Positions 4,443 to 44,678 of a stretch of 64,000 nucleotides of DNA are shown here, piece by piece. The DNA comes from a virus. The translations under genes and the position numbers were made by a program. The stretch covers positions 1-64,000 of IMG/VR virus record IMGVR_UViG_3300050026_000055; one strand, given 5' to 3'. The notes below the pieces were generated by a model. It was not told where the DNA came from, searched no databases, and saw only the letters and a program-made list of their open reading frames with translations. Each line of letters opens with the position of its first letter. The first letter of the stretch is position 1.

Positions 4443-4534
4443 GCAAGAGAGGCGGATATGGTTGGCCGCGACAGCCTGTAAAGCTGTTCTCCGTGTGAGT
4501 AACATTGGGGGTTCAAATCCCTCCTCTTGCACCA
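4443..4534 (+). tRNA. tRNA-Tyr(GTA), long variable arm, encoded CCA
   Basis: Acceptor GCAAGAG/CTCTTGC; anticodon arm ACAGC-CTGTAAA-GCTGT; T-loop TTCAAAT; ACCA end. Confidence 0.9.
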
Positions 4535-4539
4535 TTCGT

Positions 4540-4615
4540 GGGCCTGTAGCTCAGTTGGGAGAGCACCCGCCCTGCAAGCGGGGGGTCGCGAGTTCGACTC
4601 TCGCTAGGTCCACCA
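4540..4615 (+). tRNA. tRNA-Ala(TGC), encoded CCA
   Basis: Acceptor GGGCCTG/TAGGTCC with G3:U70; anticodon arm CCCGC-CCTGCAA-GCGGG; T-loop TTCGACT; 76 nt. Confidence 0.92.
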
Positions 4616-39036: not shown

Positions 39037-39217
39037 CCCGGCCAGTCGGCATTAACCAACCGTCCGGGGCTGTGCAAATGTTCGCGACCAGTCAGCCTTT
39101 GCACAACGATGTATAATAAACGAGTCAGGCCATTTGGGACGCGCCCCACGGCTAACTTTGTTCCTGACTCGTATCTTTTCAGACAAACAGATAATACCAT
39201 GACGCCGTCCGTTTGTC
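39037..39217 (-). ncRNA. putative structured RNA leader with four hairpins
   Basis: Stems at 39182-39217, 39120-39172, 39071-39105 and 39037-39068; G-U pairs favour the minus strand. Confidence 0.5.
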
Positions 39218-39232
39218 AAGAGCTGTTCTTGA

Positions 39233-39529
39233 TTATTTTTCAGGCAAATGTAAGGTCGAATCAGGTTCGTACTTTTTGAAATACTGCTGCAATTCACTGG
39301 CCGAATGTTGTTTTAGGTTGAATGGAGAGGCATAGAAATGCCATTTACCGCCAACTTTCTTCCAATCGCCGCCTTCTTGCTCAGGTGTATTGTGTACACT
39401 TTCCTTAGAAAATGTAATATGATTTGGAAGTTTAAACTCGTCAGTCAAATGCTTACCGCCTGATTGATCCGGTTCTCCGTACTTGGCCCTATATCCGGCG
39501 TAGTCATAGTCGTTAGACTCCTTTTTAGG
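39233..39529 (-). CDS. C-terminal extension of 39525-41750 reached by +1 frameshift (no plausible own start)
   Basis: HLTDEFKLPNHITFSKES...GGDW domain opens in the +1 frame at CCC TAA. Confidence 0.6.
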   Translation of the reverse strand, partial: PKKESNDYDYAGYRAKYGEPDQSGGKHLTDEFKLPNHITFSKESVHNTPEQEGGDWKKVGGKWHFYASPFNLKQHSASELQQYFKKYEPDSTLHLPEK

Positions 39530-41750
39530 GAGCCTCCTTCGCGCTATTACCGCCAAGCGGCAAGGCAGTACCTTGGTAGACATCACGTATACCAGCTCTG
39601 TCAGACTTCGGCGGTTTGTTGCCTTTGCCGACTCCCTGAGTCACGGCAGTACTTTGAGCTGCATTTGCCAAACCTGTAGTCACCGGACTACTGGCAATTT
39701 TGCTACCAGCCCCAAATGTTTTCCAAAGAGCAGGATGAGTGCTCAAAAATTCCAAAACACTCTGGCCTGCCTTCATACCGCCAGCAGCACAAGAAAGCCC
39801 AACAATAACGGCGGCAGTTTCTACAGTATTATGACCAGTCAATTCAGTTGCTACACCGGCTCCACCAGCTACGCCAGCAATTACACCAGCTTTTACTAAT
39901 CGCTGCACCATCTGTGCGTTCTTAGCGTTAGAGATTACCTGTTGAGCAAACTTTCCGATTTCAGGCGGCATGTTTACCGGGCTTGGTCCTGTGCCAAACA
40001 ATAGATTGAAGTTATCTTCCGTCAGCGTCTTTTGTGCTTTCGTAACCTGTTTTAACAAATCGCCCGGATCAAAACGACCGGTTTCCTTGTTTACAGCATC
40101 ATCCATCCATGTCTTGAAAACATCTCTGCCGATTGGAAGCATTTTTTCACGGCTACCGATTAGATCACGTAGCGCGCTTACCTTGCCATTAGAATCTCCT
40201 GACAACAGTTCTTTGCCTAAATCGTTGACAGCTTTACCCGGCTCTGTCTCAGCTAATCGTGAGATAGCCTTTGACTCCATAAGAGCATTAGTGGTTCTAT
40301 AATTACCACGCAACTTGGTATACTGATCTGCAACGGATTTAAGTTGAGGATCAGTCTTACCAGCTTTGTCAGCCATTTGTTGAATCGTGTCGTCCACGGA
40401 TGTCATCATTTGCCGCCAAGTACGAGAATTGATGTCACCAAAGCCCATTCGACTCGTCGCGGCGTAATCATCTGCTCCTTTTCTAAGAGCCTGACGAAAT
40501 GAAATAAGATCATTAATGGACCACGGTTTTACTTCCACTGGTTCAGCTTTTCCAGCAGGAGAAAAACCTTCCTCATAATTAAAAGTTCCCTCAGCCGCAT
40601 CAGCCGCCTTAGCTGCCGGAAGTTCTCCCTTTTCTAAATTAGAAAGAAGATTCTTGGTTTTAGCATCAAATCCTTCCGGTGCTCTAGCTTGTGCAACAAA
40701 TGGGTGTGTCTGTGCCGCTTCGTCTTCAGTGCCGGCCAGTATTTTACCTGCACGGCTAGCGATGGGATTGTCTTTAATATCTATTGTTTGACCTTGCAAT
40801 TTTTCTTTAATGTCATTAATACCGTGTTCAAAGTCGGTATGCATCTGCAATCGTTTGGCTTCAATCTCACTTCTGACTGCACCGACAACTTCAGTCTTTT
40901 CCGGCGCTGTCTTTGCAACTTTAGCTAACTCATCAAGAGTCTTACCGGCTTTTGCACCAGCAGCCAAACCGCCTTTAATAGCCGCACCAGCCGCACCAAC
41001 CGTGCCAGAAAGAGCAGCCATTGCACCGCCCTCTTTCAAAGCCTGACCGGTGTCACCAGTTTTAACTTTAGTCTGACCTGCCTGTACTGCGCCTTGACGA
41101 ACGGCGTTGCCGACCACATTAGCAGCTTCAGGATGCTTTGCTACCATCTCTGTTCCATACTTCAACGCATTTACAATGCGTGGAGATAGTTCAAGAGTCT
41201 GAGCAATTTTAGCAGCCTTCATTAACTTAGCTCCGGTAGCTAACCCAGCCAAAGCAGGATCACCAAGAATAAATTCTGTCAAACTTTCGCCAGCATATCC
41301 TATACTTTCTGCAGTACCTTTAGGCGTAAGATCGGTTTGAAGTTGGCCTTGTGCATCTCGCATCTCAGAGCCGGTGGGTGAATCTTCAGGATTGATGCCG
41401 GAATATTCGGACGGCAACATTTGTTTGGTATTAGTAGGCACCGCATTTACAGCAGACCTAGCAATTCCTGAAATAGTTGATCCAATGCCCTTCATGTATC
41501 CAGTAGCCGCGCCAAGCAAACCACCGGCTACTCTGGTAGCCCCCGCTTGGTTAGTGGCTGCATCTGAACCACTTAAAGGACCGGCAGGAATAGCCTTCAT
41601 TCCGTTTTGTGGAATCTCGACATTGCCGCTAGTATAGCCAGAACTAGACGCACCATTGCCCGCCTGAGATTGATCTTCAGGAGCAGGTGTAGAAGTTGGA
41701 GTCTGCCCCGGAAAGCTAACATTACCTGATGTATAGTCATTGCCTGCCAT
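39525..41750 (-). CDS. internal virion / DNA ejection protein
   Basis: 741 aa, Ala/Gly-rich helical, hydrophobic C-terminal segments; adjacent to the SLT protein. Confidence 0.65.
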   Translation of the reverse strand: MAGNDYTSGNVSFPGQTPTSTPAPEDQSQAGNGASSSGYTSGNVEIPQNGMKAIPAGPLSGSDAATNQAGATRVAGGLLGAATGYMKGIGSTISGIARSAVNAVPTNTKQMLPSEYSGINPEDSPTGSEMRDAQGQLQTDLTPKGTAESIGYAGESLTEFILGDPALAGLATGAKLMKAAKIAQTLELSPRIVNALKYGTEMVAKHPEAANVVGNAVRQGAVQAGQTKVKTGDTGQALKEGGAMAALSGTVGAAGAAIKGGLAAGAKAGKTLDELAKVAKTAPEKTEVVGAVRSEIEAKRLQMHTDFEHGINDIKEKLQGQTIDIKDNPIASRAGKILAGTEDEAAQTHPFVAQARAPEGFDAKTKNLLSNLEKGELPAAKAADAAEGTFNYEEGFSPAGKAEPVEVKPWSINDLISFRQALRKGADDYAATSRMGFGDINSRTWRQMMTSVDDTIQQMADKAGKTDPQLKSVADQYTKLRGNYRTTNALMESKAISRLAETEPGKAVNDLGKELLSGDSNGKVSALRDLIGSREKMLPIGRDVFKTWMDDAVNKETGRFDPGDLLKQVTKAQKTLTEDNFNLLFGTGPSPVNMPPEIGKFAQQVISNAKNAQMVQRLVKAGVIAGVAGGAGVATELTGHNTVETAAVIVGLSCAAGGMKAGQSVLEFLSTHPALWKTFGAGSKIASSPVTTGLANAAQSTAVTQGVGKGNKPPKSDRAGIRDVYQGTALPLGGNSAKEAP

Positions 41751-41759
41751 TATTTGTCC

Positions 41760-44678
41760 TTATTTTGTCGCTCCCACACCAAGATCGTTGGGGTGTGCCC
41801 ATTGTCCGGTCTGAGGATTCTTAACTGCAATTAATGCTCCATTTTTATACAAAGCGTTGCCTTGTATTGTCTTAGGATCAGGAAGATCGTTGGGTAATTC
41901 CACAGAAGGTGCCTGTGTCTTTCCCGTTAGTTCATTGACAGTCTTTCCACCCTTACCTGCGCCAGAAGCACTACCTGTAATGCTGCCGCCACTCTTCATG
42001 TTTCCTAACAATTCGTTTACATAAGGATTGTTAATTTTCTGAATGGCCTTTACGGTATCTGGATAAATTAGATTATGGAAATCTTCATTGAATGATTGCT
42101 TCCATTCTTCATTCAACGGAACAATACGAACAGCAGCCGTATGTGCCATTTCTTGAATTGAAGAATAAACGTTTTGCCATGGTGATGTATCCTGAGATAC
42201 CTGTGCTGCCATCTTTCTAGCGTCATCTGTCAAAGCGTGCTGATTGTTCAACAAGTTCTGCCAATCGGTAGAAGCCGTCTGCATGGCAACTTTAAATGCA
42301 TTCCAGTCTGTATTGGTTCCAAATTTATCGTTCAACCATGCCATAGTCTTGTTGCTGTATTCAGAACTATTAAGATCAATGCCGCTGCTTGCTTTAAGTT
42401 TATCCAAAGCGGTCAATGCGCCAGCCATGTGACCAAGAGACGTGTTGGCATTTTTAATGGCTGCTCCCTGACTAGTGGTGTTCGATCTGCCACTACCGGC
42501 AAAGTTTTCAAACAAACGAACCTTAGATTCAACTTCTTCTGGATTAAAGTCAGGATTACGCTTGTGGGCTTCTTGCTCCAAAGCTTGTCTACTGGCTTCA
42601 TTACGAAGACTGGTGACATGCTTCAAATCAACCATTGACGGTCCACCCGGCACTTTATTTCCGTTTTTGTCAACACCGGACAGTTGTGTAATTAGGTCGT
42701 CATTGTTTCGGATTGTATCCTCTCTAGACTGTTCCTTCAGACGCTCTGTTTTACCAACTGCCGCGTCAGCCTTTGTCTGCTCCGTGTTATGCAGTTCAGC
42801 CAAACGCAGTTTTTCTCTGTAATCGTTGATGAAGGATTGTCCTTGTAATTTGCCGTCTGGACTTTGCAGCAGACTCTTCAATCGGTTTCCTGATTGCGGG
42901 TCGAAAGTGACTTTACCGCTCTTTGCCTGTTGGTCCAACATTTTGTCAATAGAAGATGGTTCGTTGCCTTTGCCGTCCAAAAATCCATTCATTCCACCGG
43001 GCAAACGATTGTACACGCCTACATCAGCTTTGGTTATACGTCCGGAACCTGCTGCGTCCATTACATCAACAGGTTTCATAGTAGGTTGAGGTAGTTCGCC
43101 TGATTCCTTTTGATCCTGTTGCTGCTGTTCAGTAGGCATTCCAGCCTTGTTGTGTACATCGTTGACGTACTTCTTAGTTTCAGGATAATTAGGCACTCCT
43201 CCGGCCTTGTTTACCGCAGGTTCACCAGCATTGTAGGCAGCTATAGCCTTTGTAGTATCTCCTTTGTATGCCTTCAACAAATCGGACAGTAAATGCGTAC
43301 CAGCATCTATGTTCTGTGCAGGATCAAATGCATCAGTAACTCCATACTTCTTGGCGGTTGCTGGCATTAATTGCATCAATCCTTGAGCACCCTTTGGACT
43401 TAACGCATTAGGATTTCCCTTTGATTCAGTGTGCAATACAGCATTTACTAGACTGACAGGAACATCATACTTTGTAGCTGCTGTCTGAGTAGCGTCAGTA
43501 ATATTTGTCGGAAGCGTAAAGTTTGTTTTCTTTATCTCAGTCGCAGGTTTTGCTGCTCCTGCCCCAACTACCTCAGTCTTTGTGGCAGATTTTCCTGTTG
43601 CATAACCATCCAAGTCTTTTTGCATATTCTTATAACCAGCTACTTCATTGATACCAGCTATAATTCGATAAGCACGTTCCTGATAGTCTTTGGGCAAGTT
43701 TAACATCTTTCCGTCTTTATCGACGTAACCTTGCACTTTATACTTAGCCAACAAATCTTTTACATCTTGCGGGAAGTCAACCACTTTGCTTGGATCAATA
43801 ATGGCGTATTTAAATTCGTATTGTTCTACACCATTTTGCATTAATGGCATTCCATCATCACCAATTTTTGGCACAATTCCAATGGGGATAGCACCATCTT
43901 TTGTTACATGATATTGCGCTAATTTGCTTGGCAGTTCACTAGCAGTGGCATAATCCTGAACACCATTAATACTCTGCAAAGCTGTGTGCAAAGATGTATA
44001 CATGTCTACCATCGACTGTTGGTGTTCCATGCCCAATTTGTTTGCCTTCAACTGGTTGGTATATAAATCAAGGTTATTTTTAGTGATAGATGCCTGACGA
44101 GCAAAATCATCTTTCGCTCGTTGCTGTTGGCTTTGATCTATTTCTTTTGCATGAGCCATGCCGGCCTGACCGCCAGCAGCCAACCCGCGAGCGCCTGCTC
44201 CCGGACCACGCTGACCAGCACCAGCAAATAAACCTGTCAATGCGCCAGCAACAATGGAGTTGGCAAGTTGTGATTTAGTCTGTTGAACCTGAGTCCTTTC
44301 CATCTTGCCTGTATCAGCGTTCAAATTGTAGGTATATTTTGGGCCAGCTAACGCGCCCATTATGCTCCTAAAAATATCGTGCGGCTGATGTGACTGACTC
44401 GGACCGGCACCGGTGCCACTCTTATCAATGCCATTGTCATTCGATTGCATCGTTTTTTGAACGTCATTGTCAGCCGACTGCATAGTTTTTTGGACATCAT
44501 TCGGCTGTGCTGCCGATTGTGCTGGCGGTTGAGCCGCTGGCTGTCCCATAGATTGTGCTGGCGGCTGAGTCGTGCCAGATGCAGACGAAGAACTGTCTAC
44601 AGGCGTACTAGACACAGGCATACTAGCCTGCGGCTGTATCTGATCGTTCGGTTGTTCGTTAGGAGCGTCGAGTGCCAT
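41760..44678 (-). CDS. internal virion / ejection protein with lytic transglycosylase (SLT) domain
   Basis: TESKGNPNALSPKGAQGLMQLMP, AAYNAG, ETKKYV. Confidence 0.88.
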   Translation of the reverse strand: MALDAPNEQPNDQIQPQASMPVSSTPVDSSSSASGTTQPPAQSMGQPAAQPPAQSAAQPNDVQKTMQSADNDVQKTMQSNDNGIDKSGTGAGPSQSHQPHDIFRSIMGALAGPKYTYNLNADTGKMERTQVQQTKSQLANSIVAGALTGLFAGAGQRGPGAGARGLAAGGQAGMAHAKEIDQSQQQRAKDDFARQASITKNNLDLYTNQLKANKLGMEHQQSMVDMYTSLHTALQSINGVQDYATASELPSKLAQYHVTKDGAIPIGIVPKIGDDGMPLMQNGVEQYEFKYAIIDPSKVVDFPQDVKDLLAKYKVQGYVDKDGKMLNLPKDYQERAYRIIAGINEVAGYKNMQKDLDGYATGKSATKTEVVGAGAAKPATEIKKTNFTLPTNITDATQTAATKYDVPVSLVNAVLHTESKGNPNALSPKGAQGLMQLMPATAKKYGVTDAFDPAQNIDAGTHLLSDLLKAYKGDTTKAIAAYNAGEPAVNKAGGVPNYPETKKYVNDVHNKAGMPTEQQQQDQKESGELPQPTMKPVDVMDAAGSGRITKADVGVYNRLPGGMNGFLDGKGNEPSSIDKMLDQQAKSGKVTFDPQSGNRLKSLLQSPDGKLQGQSFINDYREKLRLAELHNTEQTKADAAVGKTERLKEQSREDTIRNNDDLITQLSGVDKNGNKVPGGPSMVDLKHVTSLRNEASRQALEQEAHKRNPDFNPEEVESKVRLFENFAGSGRSNTTSQGAAIKNANTSLGHMAGALTALDKLKASSGIDLNSSEYSNKTMAWLNDKFGTNTDWNAFKVAMQTASTDWQNLLNNQHALTDDARKMAAQVSQDTSPWQNVYSSIQEMAHTAAVRIVPLNEEWKQSFNEDFHNLIYPDTVKAIQKINNPYVNELLGNMKSGGSITGSASGAGKGGKTVNELTGKTQAPSVELPNDLPDPKTIQGNALYKNGALIAVKNPQTGQWAHPNDLGVGATK

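What the first reader, a model, noticed from the sequence alone, without database searches (positions are those of the whole stretch)
39233..39539. Programmed +1 frameshift with a prfB-like SD extends an ejection protein
Seen: the 741-aa gene ends AAG GAG GCT CCC TAA; the +1 frame continues CCT AAA AAG GAG into a 98-residue domain with no usable start of its own; AAGGAG lies 3 nt before the CCC. Known: CCC-UAA causes +1 shifting in the SPP1 tail tube gene, and prfB uses an SD 3 nt upstream of the shift codon. Inference: two isoforms are made. Such shifts are mostly known for capsid and tail tube proteins, so an internal protein would be unusual, and the added domain may be a delivered effector.
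Basis: partly seen in the sequence, partly recalled or inferred. Interest (0 to 1): 0.75.

Follow-up and report, generated by a model that had tools for sequence, protein, structure and literature searches.

The report
Likely +1 frameshift adding phage cargo domain
In an uncultured peat phage, a small mobile protein domain with no proper start codon follows the last virion gene behind a textbook slippery site, so it is probably added to that protein by a +1 ribosomal frameshift, though this is unproven.

Summary
The sequence is as described. On the minus strand the 741-aa gene ends AAGGAG-GCT-CCC-TAA, and the +1 frame runs on for 97 more codons. Three independent assemblies show no indel. One detail is wrong: the +1 frame is open upstream to an SD-less ATG at 39583, which the IMG gene call uses for a 116-aa protein.

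The extension is a ~300-nt cassette. The closest relative (77% aa identity) lacks it and stops directly before the same promoter. None of 16 related loci has it.

The cassette encodes a widespread phage domain (over 1000 cluster representatives). It has no Pfam, PHROG or PDB match, but the fold prediction is confident (pLDDT 94). Elsewhere it is fused in frame to portal C-termini, sits in polyvalent and SLT or lysozyme virion proteins, or stands alone. The stand-alone copies have a start at or close to the upstream stop, mostly a stop-start overlap. The window's 59-nt overlap with no SD is atypical.

Strain variants are all synonymous in the domain frame, so it is translated. CCC is the rarest Pro codon.

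Best reading: a prfB/SPP1-like +1 frameshift giving an 838-aa fusion (about 0.5). Rivals are initiation at ATG 39583 (about 0.25) and a barely expressed remnant (about 0.15). This is a new variant of a known kind, of moderate interest.

The parts
39525..41750 (-). 741-aa gene (P0001), last gene of the virion operon. Zero-frame product ends ...LPLGGNSAKEAP. Putative internal or ejection protein, by position only.
   Evidence: Family of 16 related loci. No Pfam, PHROG or PDB match. Follows the SLT-domain 972-aa gene at 41760..44678.
39534..39539 (-). Internal Shine-Dalgarno-like AAGGAG (AAGGAGG if 39533 is counted), 3 nt (GCU) upstream of the shift codon.
   Evidence: The same motif serves as ribosome-binding site for most genes in the window. 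The 3-nt spacing is the one known for +1 stimulation (PMC5009743).
39528..39530 (-). CCC, last sense codon and proposed shift codon. The peptidyl-tRNA-Pro re-pairs with CCU (39529-39527).
   Evidence: CCC is the rarest Pro codon in the window (10.6%). This is the only one of 48 long ORFs ending CCC-stop.
39525..39527 (-). TAA stop of the zero frame (context UAA-A), the slow A-site codon.
   Evidence: No indel in three assemblies.
39233..39526 (-). +1-frame extension: 97 codons (KKESN...LHLPEK) plus stop TAA 39235-39233. The trans-frame product would be 741 + 97 = 838 aa.
   Evidence: Six of six listed strain variants (39452-39494) are synonymous third-position changes in this frame.
39242..39511 (-). 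Conserved domain core (DYD ... HLTDEFKLPNHITFS ... LHLP), about 90 aa.
   Evidence: 1078 cluster representatives at E<=1e-3. Alignment A2. AlphaFold pLDDT 94.1. No Pfam, PHROG or PDB sequence match. No PDB fold match: best Foldseek E 0.13, best VIA-align Z 2.5. BFVD matches to uncharacterised, structural and crAss-like phage proteins.
39220..39549 (-). Approximate extent of the cassette that is absent from the closest relative L004. The 5' boundary follows GGCGG and begins TAATAGCGCG. The 3' boundary is ill-defined, between AAAAATAA and the -35 box.
   Evidence: Comparison. No domain in any of loci L004-L019.
39581..39586 (-). Rival start codons GTG 39586 and ATG 39583 in the +1 frame, 59-62 nt inside the 741-aa gene. 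The IMG gene call starts at the ATG (116 aa).
   Evidence: No SD upstream. The same ATG exists in L004, which has no domain, because the zero frame there encodes R-D-V.
39191..39219 (-). Sigma-70-type promoter (TTGACA, 17 nt, TATTAT) of the next operon. It marks the end of the late transcript unit that carries the cassette.
   Evidence: Conserved directly after the stop codon in L004.

Best explanation
A ~300-nt mobile cassette encoding a virion-associated domain of about 90 aa was inserted at the 3' end of the last virion-operon gene, in the +1 frame and without a start codon of its own. Most ribosomes terminate at CCC-UAA and make the 741-aa protein.

In a fraction of ribosomes three things coincide. 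The internal AAGGAG pairs with the 16S anti-SD 3 nt behind the P site. The rare-codon peptidyl-tRNA-Pro slips from CCC to CCU. The UAA in the A site is decoded slowly. Translation then continues in +1 to give an 838-aa protein carrying the domain on its C-terminus (junction ...NSAKEAP-KKESNDYDY...). This would dock the domain onto a virion-internal or ejection protein in sub-stoichiometric amounts.

Shown: the sequence elements, their geometry, cassette presence and absence, selection on the +1 frame, and the domain's architectures elsewhere. Inferred: that shifting occurs at a useful rate, that the 741-aa protein is virion-internal, and that the domain is cargo.
For: (1) The geometry is exact: AAGGAG, 3 nt, CCC, UAA. 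This matches the SPP1 CCCUAA +1 site (PMC6316719) and the 3-nt SD spacing for +1 shifts (PMC5009743). The same review reports that half of the E. coli genes ending CCC_UGA shift at more than 1% without help.

(2) CCC is the rarest Pro codon here (10.6%), and this is the only one of 48 long ORFs ending CCC-stop. The motif occurs once against 0.12 expected.

(3) The phage's genes use AAGGAG-type ribosome-binding sites, so the host ribosome has a matching anti-SD.

(4) There is no indel in three independent assemblies. The same zero-frame C-terminus appears on another contig (P0217).

(5) The +1 frame is coding: 6 of 6 listed variants are synonymous. A second strain's copy (P0156) is 86% identical over the whole ORF and intact.

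(6) There is no start codon between the stop and the domain. The only upstream ATG has no SD and overlaps the upstream gene by 59 nt. In about 60 stand-alone homologues in viral contigs the start lies at or within some 20 nt of the upstream stop, mostly as a TAATG, TGATG or GTGA overlap, some also with an SD.

(7) The +1 'leader' looks like shadow-frame sequence. Between the two strains, 8 of 14 leader residues differ. The minimal nucleotide changes fall mainly on zero-frame third positions (8 of 11), leaving the zero frame with 3 of 14 changes. This is inferred.

(8) A C-terminal fusion makes biological sense. The domain is fused in frame to portal C-termini (L023, L035, L039), to an SLT protein's C-terminus (P0085), and sits in polyvalent proteins with MuF_C, ART-PolyVal, LPD3 and InPase.

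(9) A second, independent recoding candidate leads into the same domain. In L029 a portal-like ORF ends AAC CCA AAG TCT TAG. The domain is in the -1 frame, a GGGGGA lies 11 nt before C_CCA_AAG, and the -1-frame linker matches in-frame linkers of fused homologues.
Against: No protein or ribosome data exist, so the shift efficiency is unknown. The AAGGAGG could be a leftover ribosome-binding site of a formerly stand-alone cassette gene: SD, then 6-9 nt, then AAA or AAG where an ATG would be expected. In that case its presence needs no frameshift role.

An in-frame ATG exists 18 codons upstream. It would give a 24-residue leader before the DYD motif, which is within the family's normal range of 2-70 residues. 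Roughly 10-15% of genes in the window also lack a clear SD.

Conservation of the site cannot be tested properly. The closest relatives lack the cassette, and the DNA of the second strain (P0156) could not be fetched. No in-frame fused homologue of the 741-aa family exists. The local RNA fold is not significant (z = -1.1).
Confidence: 0.5

Rival explanations
1. Independent overlapping gene. The domain is made as a free 116-aa protein from ATG 39583 (or GTG 39586), as the IMG annotation has it. The CCC-UAA and SD arrangement is coincidental or a remnant.
For: The +1 frame is open to ATG 39583. The IMG gene call P0216 and the Logan call P0156 both start at the equivalent ATG. Stand-alone proteins of 105-145 aa with 2-70-residue leaders are the commonest form of this family. 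Some real genes in the window lack an SD.
Against: There is no SD, and the start lies 59 nt inside an actively translated gene. The ATG is also present in L004, which has no domain, simply because the zero frame encodes R-D-V. So it did not come with the cassette and needs no selection as a start. Leader residues differ at 8 of 14 positions between the two strains, in a pattern that fits zero-frame selection. All about 60 other stand-alone genes start at or close to the upstream stop.
Confidence: 0.25
2. Start-less remnant. The cassette once had its own start after AAGGAGG and lost it. The domain is now made only at the low adventitious rate of any CCC-stop site, or not at all, and is on its way to decay.
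For: AAGGAGG, CTCCCT, then AAA AAG has the spacing of this phage's own ribosome-binding sites but no start codon. The cassette is dispensable, since the closest relative lacks it. Insertion in one of three frames and a chance stop are cheap events.
Against: Two strains differing at about 10% of domain residues both keep the frame intact. Within-sample variants are 6 of 6 synonymous. This argues for ongoing purifying selection, and hence translation at a level that matters.
Confidence: 0.15
3. Artefact. An extra C in the assembly splits a true in-frame fusion (CC-TAA... read as GCT CCT AAA).
For: Removing one C of CCC would give exactly the fused frame.
Against: Contigs from three independent runs cross the site without any indel. 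Further JGI contigs encode a protein ending ...KEAP. A 3-nt homopolymer is not error-prone in short-read data.
Confidence: 0.03

Closest known systems
SPP1 tail tube gp17.1/gp17.1* (+1 shift at CCC-UAA) and Listeria phage PSA/A118/A500 tsh (+1 at CCC-UGA)
   Same: A rare CCC as last sense codon directly before a stop. Re-pairing on CCU. A folded, non-essential C-terminal accessory domain added to a fraction of a phage virion protein (PMC6316719, PMC5009743).
   Different: Those are tail tube or capsid proteins with FN3 or Ig-like extensions, and the papers read here do not mention an SD stimulator. Here the carrier is an unannotated last gene of the virion operon, the domain has no known fold, and an SD sits at the prfB spacing. 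The extension is a cassette missing from the closest relative.
prfB (release factor 2) autoregulatory +1 frameshift
   Same: An SD-like element 3 nt upstream of the shift codon, a stop codon in the A site, and a +1 slip of the P-site tRNA (PMC5009743).
   Different: prfB uses CUU-UGA-C and senses RF2 levels. The shift there is needed to make the only functional product. Here the codon is CCC, the stop is UAA (read by RF1 and RF2), and the shift would make a second isoform.
Polyvalent proteins of phages and conjugative elements (Pfam families MuF_C, ART-PolyVal, LPD3, InPase, ddrB-ParB)
   Same: The domain occurs inside such giant multi-domain proteins, as one module among many.
   Different: The domain has no Pfam model of its own. 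In the window it is not part of a polyvalent protein but a single module behind a 741-aa gene.
T7/T3 capsid 10A/10B and lambda G/GT -1 frameshifts; dnaX
   Same: Recoding to make a C-terminally extended second isoform of a phage structural or assembly protein. The L029 candidate (SD, 11 nt, C_CCA_AAG) is of the dnaX type.
   Different: The direction of the shift and the slippery-site type differ from the window's site.

Membership tests
Programmed +1 ribosomal frameshift site (prfB / SPP1 type) | P-site codon whose tRNA can re-pair in the +1 frame | tested here: met
   CCC to CCU, both Pro
Programmed +1 ribosomal frameshift site (prfB / SPP1 type) | Slow A-site codon (stop or rare codon) next to the shift codon | tested here: met
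   UAA directly follows CCC. CCC itself is the rarest Pro codon, 10.6%.
Programmed +1 ribosomal frameshift site (prfB / SPP1 type) | SD-like stimulator 3 nt upstream of the shift codon (prfB type only) | tested here: met
   AAGGAG 39539-39534, spacer GCT, CCC. Spacing rule from PMC5009743. The phage's genes use the same SD.
Programmed +1 ribosomal frameshift site (prfB / SPP1 type) | +1 frame open, coding and under selection, without its own initiation signal | tested here: inconclusive
   The frame is coding and selected. No start lies after the stop, but an SD-less ATG lies 18 codons upstream.
Programmed +1 ribosomal frameshift site (prfB / SPP1 type) | Shift site conserved among relatives that carry the extension | tested here: inconclusive
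   A second strain (P0156) keeps ...RRRLPKKESN in the +1 frame, which is compatible with the same nucleotides. Its DNA could not be fetched. All 16 other relatives lack the extension.
Programmed +1 ribosomal frameshift site (prfB / SPP1 type) | Trans-frame protein product demonstrated | not testable with these tools
   Uncultured phage from peat metagenomes. No proteomic or ribosome-profiling data.
Phage structural-protein C-terminal decoration by recoding (Ig-like / FN3 extensions) | The extension is an Ig-like or FN3 fold | tested here: inconclusive
   The AlphaFold model is mixed alpha/beta. No significant PDB match: best Foldseek E 0.13, best VIA-align Z 2.5. A missing match does not exclude a fold.
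Phage structural-protein C-terminal decoration by recoding (Ig-like / FN3 extensions) | The carrier is a known virion protein | tested here: inconclusive
   Position in the virion operon after an SLT-domain protein. The family itself is unannotated.
Polyvalent-protein-associated domains (Pfam LPD and related) | Matches a Pfam LPD or polyvalent domain model | tested here: not met
   No Pfam hit at E<=0.1 for the ORF
Polyvalent-protein-associated domains (Pfam LPD and related) | Occurs as a module in giant proteins with MuF_C, ART-PolyVal, LPD or InPase domains | tested here: met
   P0015 (InPase), P0030 (MuF_C), P0083 (ART-PolyVal, LPD3, MuF_C, ddrB-ParB)
Ordinary overlapping small gene | Start codon with a ribosome-binding site, or coupled to the upstream stop | tested here: not met
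   ATG 39583 has no SD and lies 59 nt before the upstream stop. Family members elsewhere start at or close to the upstream stop, mostly as a stop-start overlap.

The most novel reading that the evidence does not exclude
Phages use ribosomal recoding as a general way to dock a mobile, fold-novel cargo domain onto virion-internal scaffolds. Here a prfB-type SD-stimulated +1 shift would load it onto an ejection protein. In an unrelated phage (L029) a dnaX-type SD-stimulated -1 shift would load the same domain onto the portal. Other phages fuse it in frame to the portal or encode it separately. This would be the first SD-stimulated +1 frameshift outside prfB, and a new class of virion-delivered module.
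Probability: 0.3. Interest if true: 0.75.

Novelty: new variant of a known kind. Interest (0 to 1): 0.55.

Why it matters
SD-stimulated +1 frameshifting is essentially known only from prfB. A phage example that sets the dose of a cargo domain on a virion-internal protein would widen the known uses of that mechanism.

It would also explain how start-less mobile domain cassettes can be expressed straight after insertion.

Independently of the frameshift, the domain is abundant (over 1000 clusters at 50% identity), confidently folded and without a known fold. It is attached to portals, polyvalent proteins and virion lysozymes. That makes it a good candidate for an uncharacterised class of capsid-internal or injected phage proteins.

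Tried and rejected
Searches with no match:
- Near-DNA and protein searches of the INPHARED phage collection with the region, the 741-aa protein and the domain.
- The 741-aa protein in IMG/VR.
- The exact 20-mer around the site in IMG/VR.

Tools that did not help:
The DNA of P0005, P0006 and the second-strain protein P0156 could therefore not be read.
- The last homologue search, for short partial proteins, found only an identical fragment.
- The ESM Atlas gave no usable hit.

Fold and annotation:
- PDB sequence search, Foldseek on PDB and VIA-align wide (best Z 2.5) gave no convincing fold match for the domain.
- No annotation was found for the 741-aa family in the PDB profile search or in PHROGs.

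Structures and alternative mechanisms rejected:
- A 7-bp hairpin (AGGCUCC / GGAGUCU) spans the site, but the 161-nt fold is not better than shuffles (z = -1.1). I do not claim an RNA stimulator.
- The ATG at 39507, 10 nt behind the second AAGGAG, is in the third frame and gives only a 20-aa ORF inside the conserved DYD motif. I rejected it as the domain's start.
- Non-AUG initiation at AAA or AAG behind AAGGAGG is not a known start.
- Transcriptional slippage on A5 lies after the stop, so it cannot rescue the frame.
- No phage tRNA-Pro is present in the window.
Full report
**Context.** The window is the first 64 kb of a 96,280-bp IMG/VR viral record with direct terminal repeats. Near-identical sequence is held by several peat metagenome runs. 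Bases 39.2-63 kb of the minus strand carry a virion operon. It includes tail-fibre-like proteins, a 972-aa protein with an SLT transglycosylase domain (PHROGs 'internal virion protein with endolysin domain' and 'lytic tail protein'), and as last gene the 741-aa ORF 39525..41750.

**Observation.** The minus strand reads GCG AAG GAG GCT CCC TAA AAA GGA G.
- AAGGAG is 39539-39534, the 3-nt spacer GCT is 39533-39531, CCC is 39530-39528 and TAA is 39527-39525.
- The +1 frame (CCT AAA AAG GAG TCT AAC GAC TAT GAC ...) is open for 98 codons, to TAA 39235-39233.
- Contigs from three independent sequencing runs cross the site with no indel. Further JGI contigs encode a protein ending ...NSAKEAP. An assembly error is therefore very unlikely.
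- The motif RGGAG-N3-CCC-TRR occurs once in the window against 0.12 expected.
- CCC is the rarest proline codon (10.6%), and this is the only one of 48 long ORFs that ends CCC-stop.

One correction is needed. The +1 frame stays open upstream to ATG 39583 and GTG 39586. The IMG gene call uses that ATG for a 116-aa protein, P0216.

**The extension is a cassette.** A metagenome scan gave 16 loci encoding relatives of the 741-aa protein. None has the domain downstream.

In the closest relative (L004, 77% aa identity) the gene ends ...LPLGGK TAA. It is followed at once by the same TTGACA promoter and the same structured leader that lie downstream of the cassette in the window (one search compared; promoter).

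The two sequences part after GGCGG/GGTGG (window about 39549, where the insert begins TAATAGCGCG). They rejoin around AAAATAA and the -35 box. About 300 nt carrying the domain are therefore present in the window phage and absent in its relative. The zero frame simply runs 7 codons into the insert until CCC TAA.

**The domain.**
- A full HMMER scan of 1.84 billion cluster representatives found 1078 hits at E<=1e-3.
- It has no Pfam or PHROG model and no PDB sequence match.
- AlphaFold gives a confident mixed alpha/beta model, pLDDT 94.1. There is no significant PDB fold match: best Foldseek E 0.13, best VIA-align Z 2.5.
- BFVD matches are uncharacterised phage proteins. They include a 'putative structural protein' and crAss-like phage proteins, one carrying a glucosaminidase-like domain.

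Architectures are very diverse:
- N-terminal, internal or C-terminal in proteins up to 4230 aa, including polyvalent proteins with InPase, MuF_C, ART-PolyVal, LPD3 and ddrB-ParB.
- In virion lysozyme and SLT proteins (P0063, P0085).
- Fused in frame to the C-terminus of portal proteins in three viral contigs (L023, L035, L039).
- As a stand-alone gene of 105-145 aa, often directly after the portal gene or another head gene.

This points to a capsid-internal or virion-associated module. Its biochemical function is unknown. The nearly invariant residues are Tyr8, His27, Lys33, Pro35, His37, Thr39, Phe40 and Trp56.

**How is it expressed here?** The frame is translated. All six listed variants in a co-occurring strain (39452-39494) are synonymous third-position changes in the domain frame. 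A second strain's copy (P0156, 86% identical over the whole ORF) is intact.

There is no ATG, GTG or TTG between the zero-frame stop and the conserved DYD motif. Two routes remain.

*(a) A +1 frameshift at CCC-UAA.* The site combines the SPP1 shift sequence, CCCUAA with rare CCC re-pairing on CCU, which gives gp17.1 and gp17.1* at 3:1 (PMC6316719). It also has the one SD spacing known to stimulate +1 shifts, 3 nt, as in release factor 2 (PMC5009743). Even unaided CCC_UGA sites shift at more than 1% in half of the E. coli genes that end so. Most genes of this phage have AAGGAG-type ribosome-binding sites, so the host's anti-SD matches.

*(b) Initiation at ATG 39583.* This would give a 24-residue leader before the DYD motif, within the family's range. 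Several points count against it:
- The ATG has no SD and lies 59 nt inside the upstream gene.
- The ATG is also present in L004, which has no domain, because the zero frame there encodes R-D-V.
- In the 80 best viral loci, every stand-alone copy starts at or within some 20 nt of the upstream stop, mostly as a TAATG, TGATG or GTGA overlap, some also with an SD. The only exception is L029.
- The leaders of the two strains (MSTKVLPCRLAVIA... and MRIPALPCLLLAIV...) differ at 8 of 14 positions. The minimal nucleotide changes fall mostly on zero-frame third positions. The inferred zero-frame peptide would change at only 3 of 14 positions. This is my inference.

A caveat for (a): AAGGAGG followed by 6-9 nt and AAA AAG has exactly the spacing of this phage's own ribosome-binding sites. 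The SD could therefore be a relic of a once stand-alone cassette gene whose start was lost. It may not be an element selected for frameshifting.

**A parallel case.** In L029 a 706-aa portal-like ORF (PHROG 332) ends AAC CCA AAG TCT TAG, and the domain lies in the -1 frame.
- C_CCA_AAG is a classical X_XXY_YYZ heptamer.
- A GGGGGA lies 11 nt upstream, within the 9-14-nt window for -1 stimulation.
- The -1-frame linker (...QGYADGGMVDYD) matches the in-frame linkers of fused homologues P0032 and P0042.

This is one contig and was not verified by reads. It does suggest that recoding is used more than once to hang this domain on virion proteins.

**Verdict.** The most likely reading is a programmed, or at least exploited, +1 frameshift producing an 838-aa isoform (about 0.5). 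The rivals are independent initiation at ATG 39583 (about 0.25), a weakly expressed remnant (about 0.15) and an artefact (about 0.03).

The 'ejection protein' label is positional only. The 741-aa family has no match in Pfam, PHROGs or PDB.

Compared with known cases this is a new variant: a CCC-stop +1 site as in SPP1 and the Listeria phages, an SD stimulator as in prfB, a different carrier protein, and a mobile extension of unknown fold. That would have been the best available test of site conservation.

Noticed in passing
L029:2424-2510 (IMGVR_UViG_3300050139_000074): Candidate dnaX-like -1 frameshift. A portal-like 706-aa ORF ends AAC CCA AAG TCT TAG, with GGGGGA 11 nt upstream of C_CCA_AAG. 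The same domain follows in the -1 frame, with a linker homologous to in-frame linkers of fused proteins. It could also be an assembly indel.
   Followed up: partly
L023:455-2788, L035:473-2830, L039:206-2827: Portal proteins (PHROG 156) carrying the same domain fused in frame at their C-terminus. In many other contigs the domain is a small gene directly after the portal gene, overlapping its stop (TAATG or GTGA).
   Followed up: partly
window 39037-39232 (minus strand): A near-consensus promoter (TTGACA, 17 nt, TATTAT; 39219-39191) followed by a hairpin-rich leader. L004 has the same promoter arrangement and an almost identical leader. The ORF-list ATG at 39200 lies inside the promoter spacer, so the 198-aa ORF must start further downstream.
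   Followed up: partly
window 39375-39516: All four Logan assemblies break their contigs inside the N-terminal half of the cassette. X1 holds two haplotypes there (9 differences in 86 nt). This suggests microdiversity, or copies of the cassette in other genomes of the same samples.
   Followed up: no
window 39445-39526 (minus strand): A second AAGGAG (39523-39518) lies 10 nt before an out-of-frame ATG (39507-39505) that opens only a 20-codon ORF inside the conserved DYD region. Probably a by-product of the K-E and Y-D codons.
   Followed up: partly
window 39514-39534 (minus strand): A 7-bp hairpin, AGGCUCC / GGAGUCU with loop CUAAAAA, encloses the stop codon. The fold of the surrounding 161 nt is not better than shuffled sequence.
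   Followed up: yes
window 4443-4615: Two adjacent phage tRNA genes, Tyr (GTA) and Ala (TGC). No tRNA-Pro in the window.
   Followed up: no
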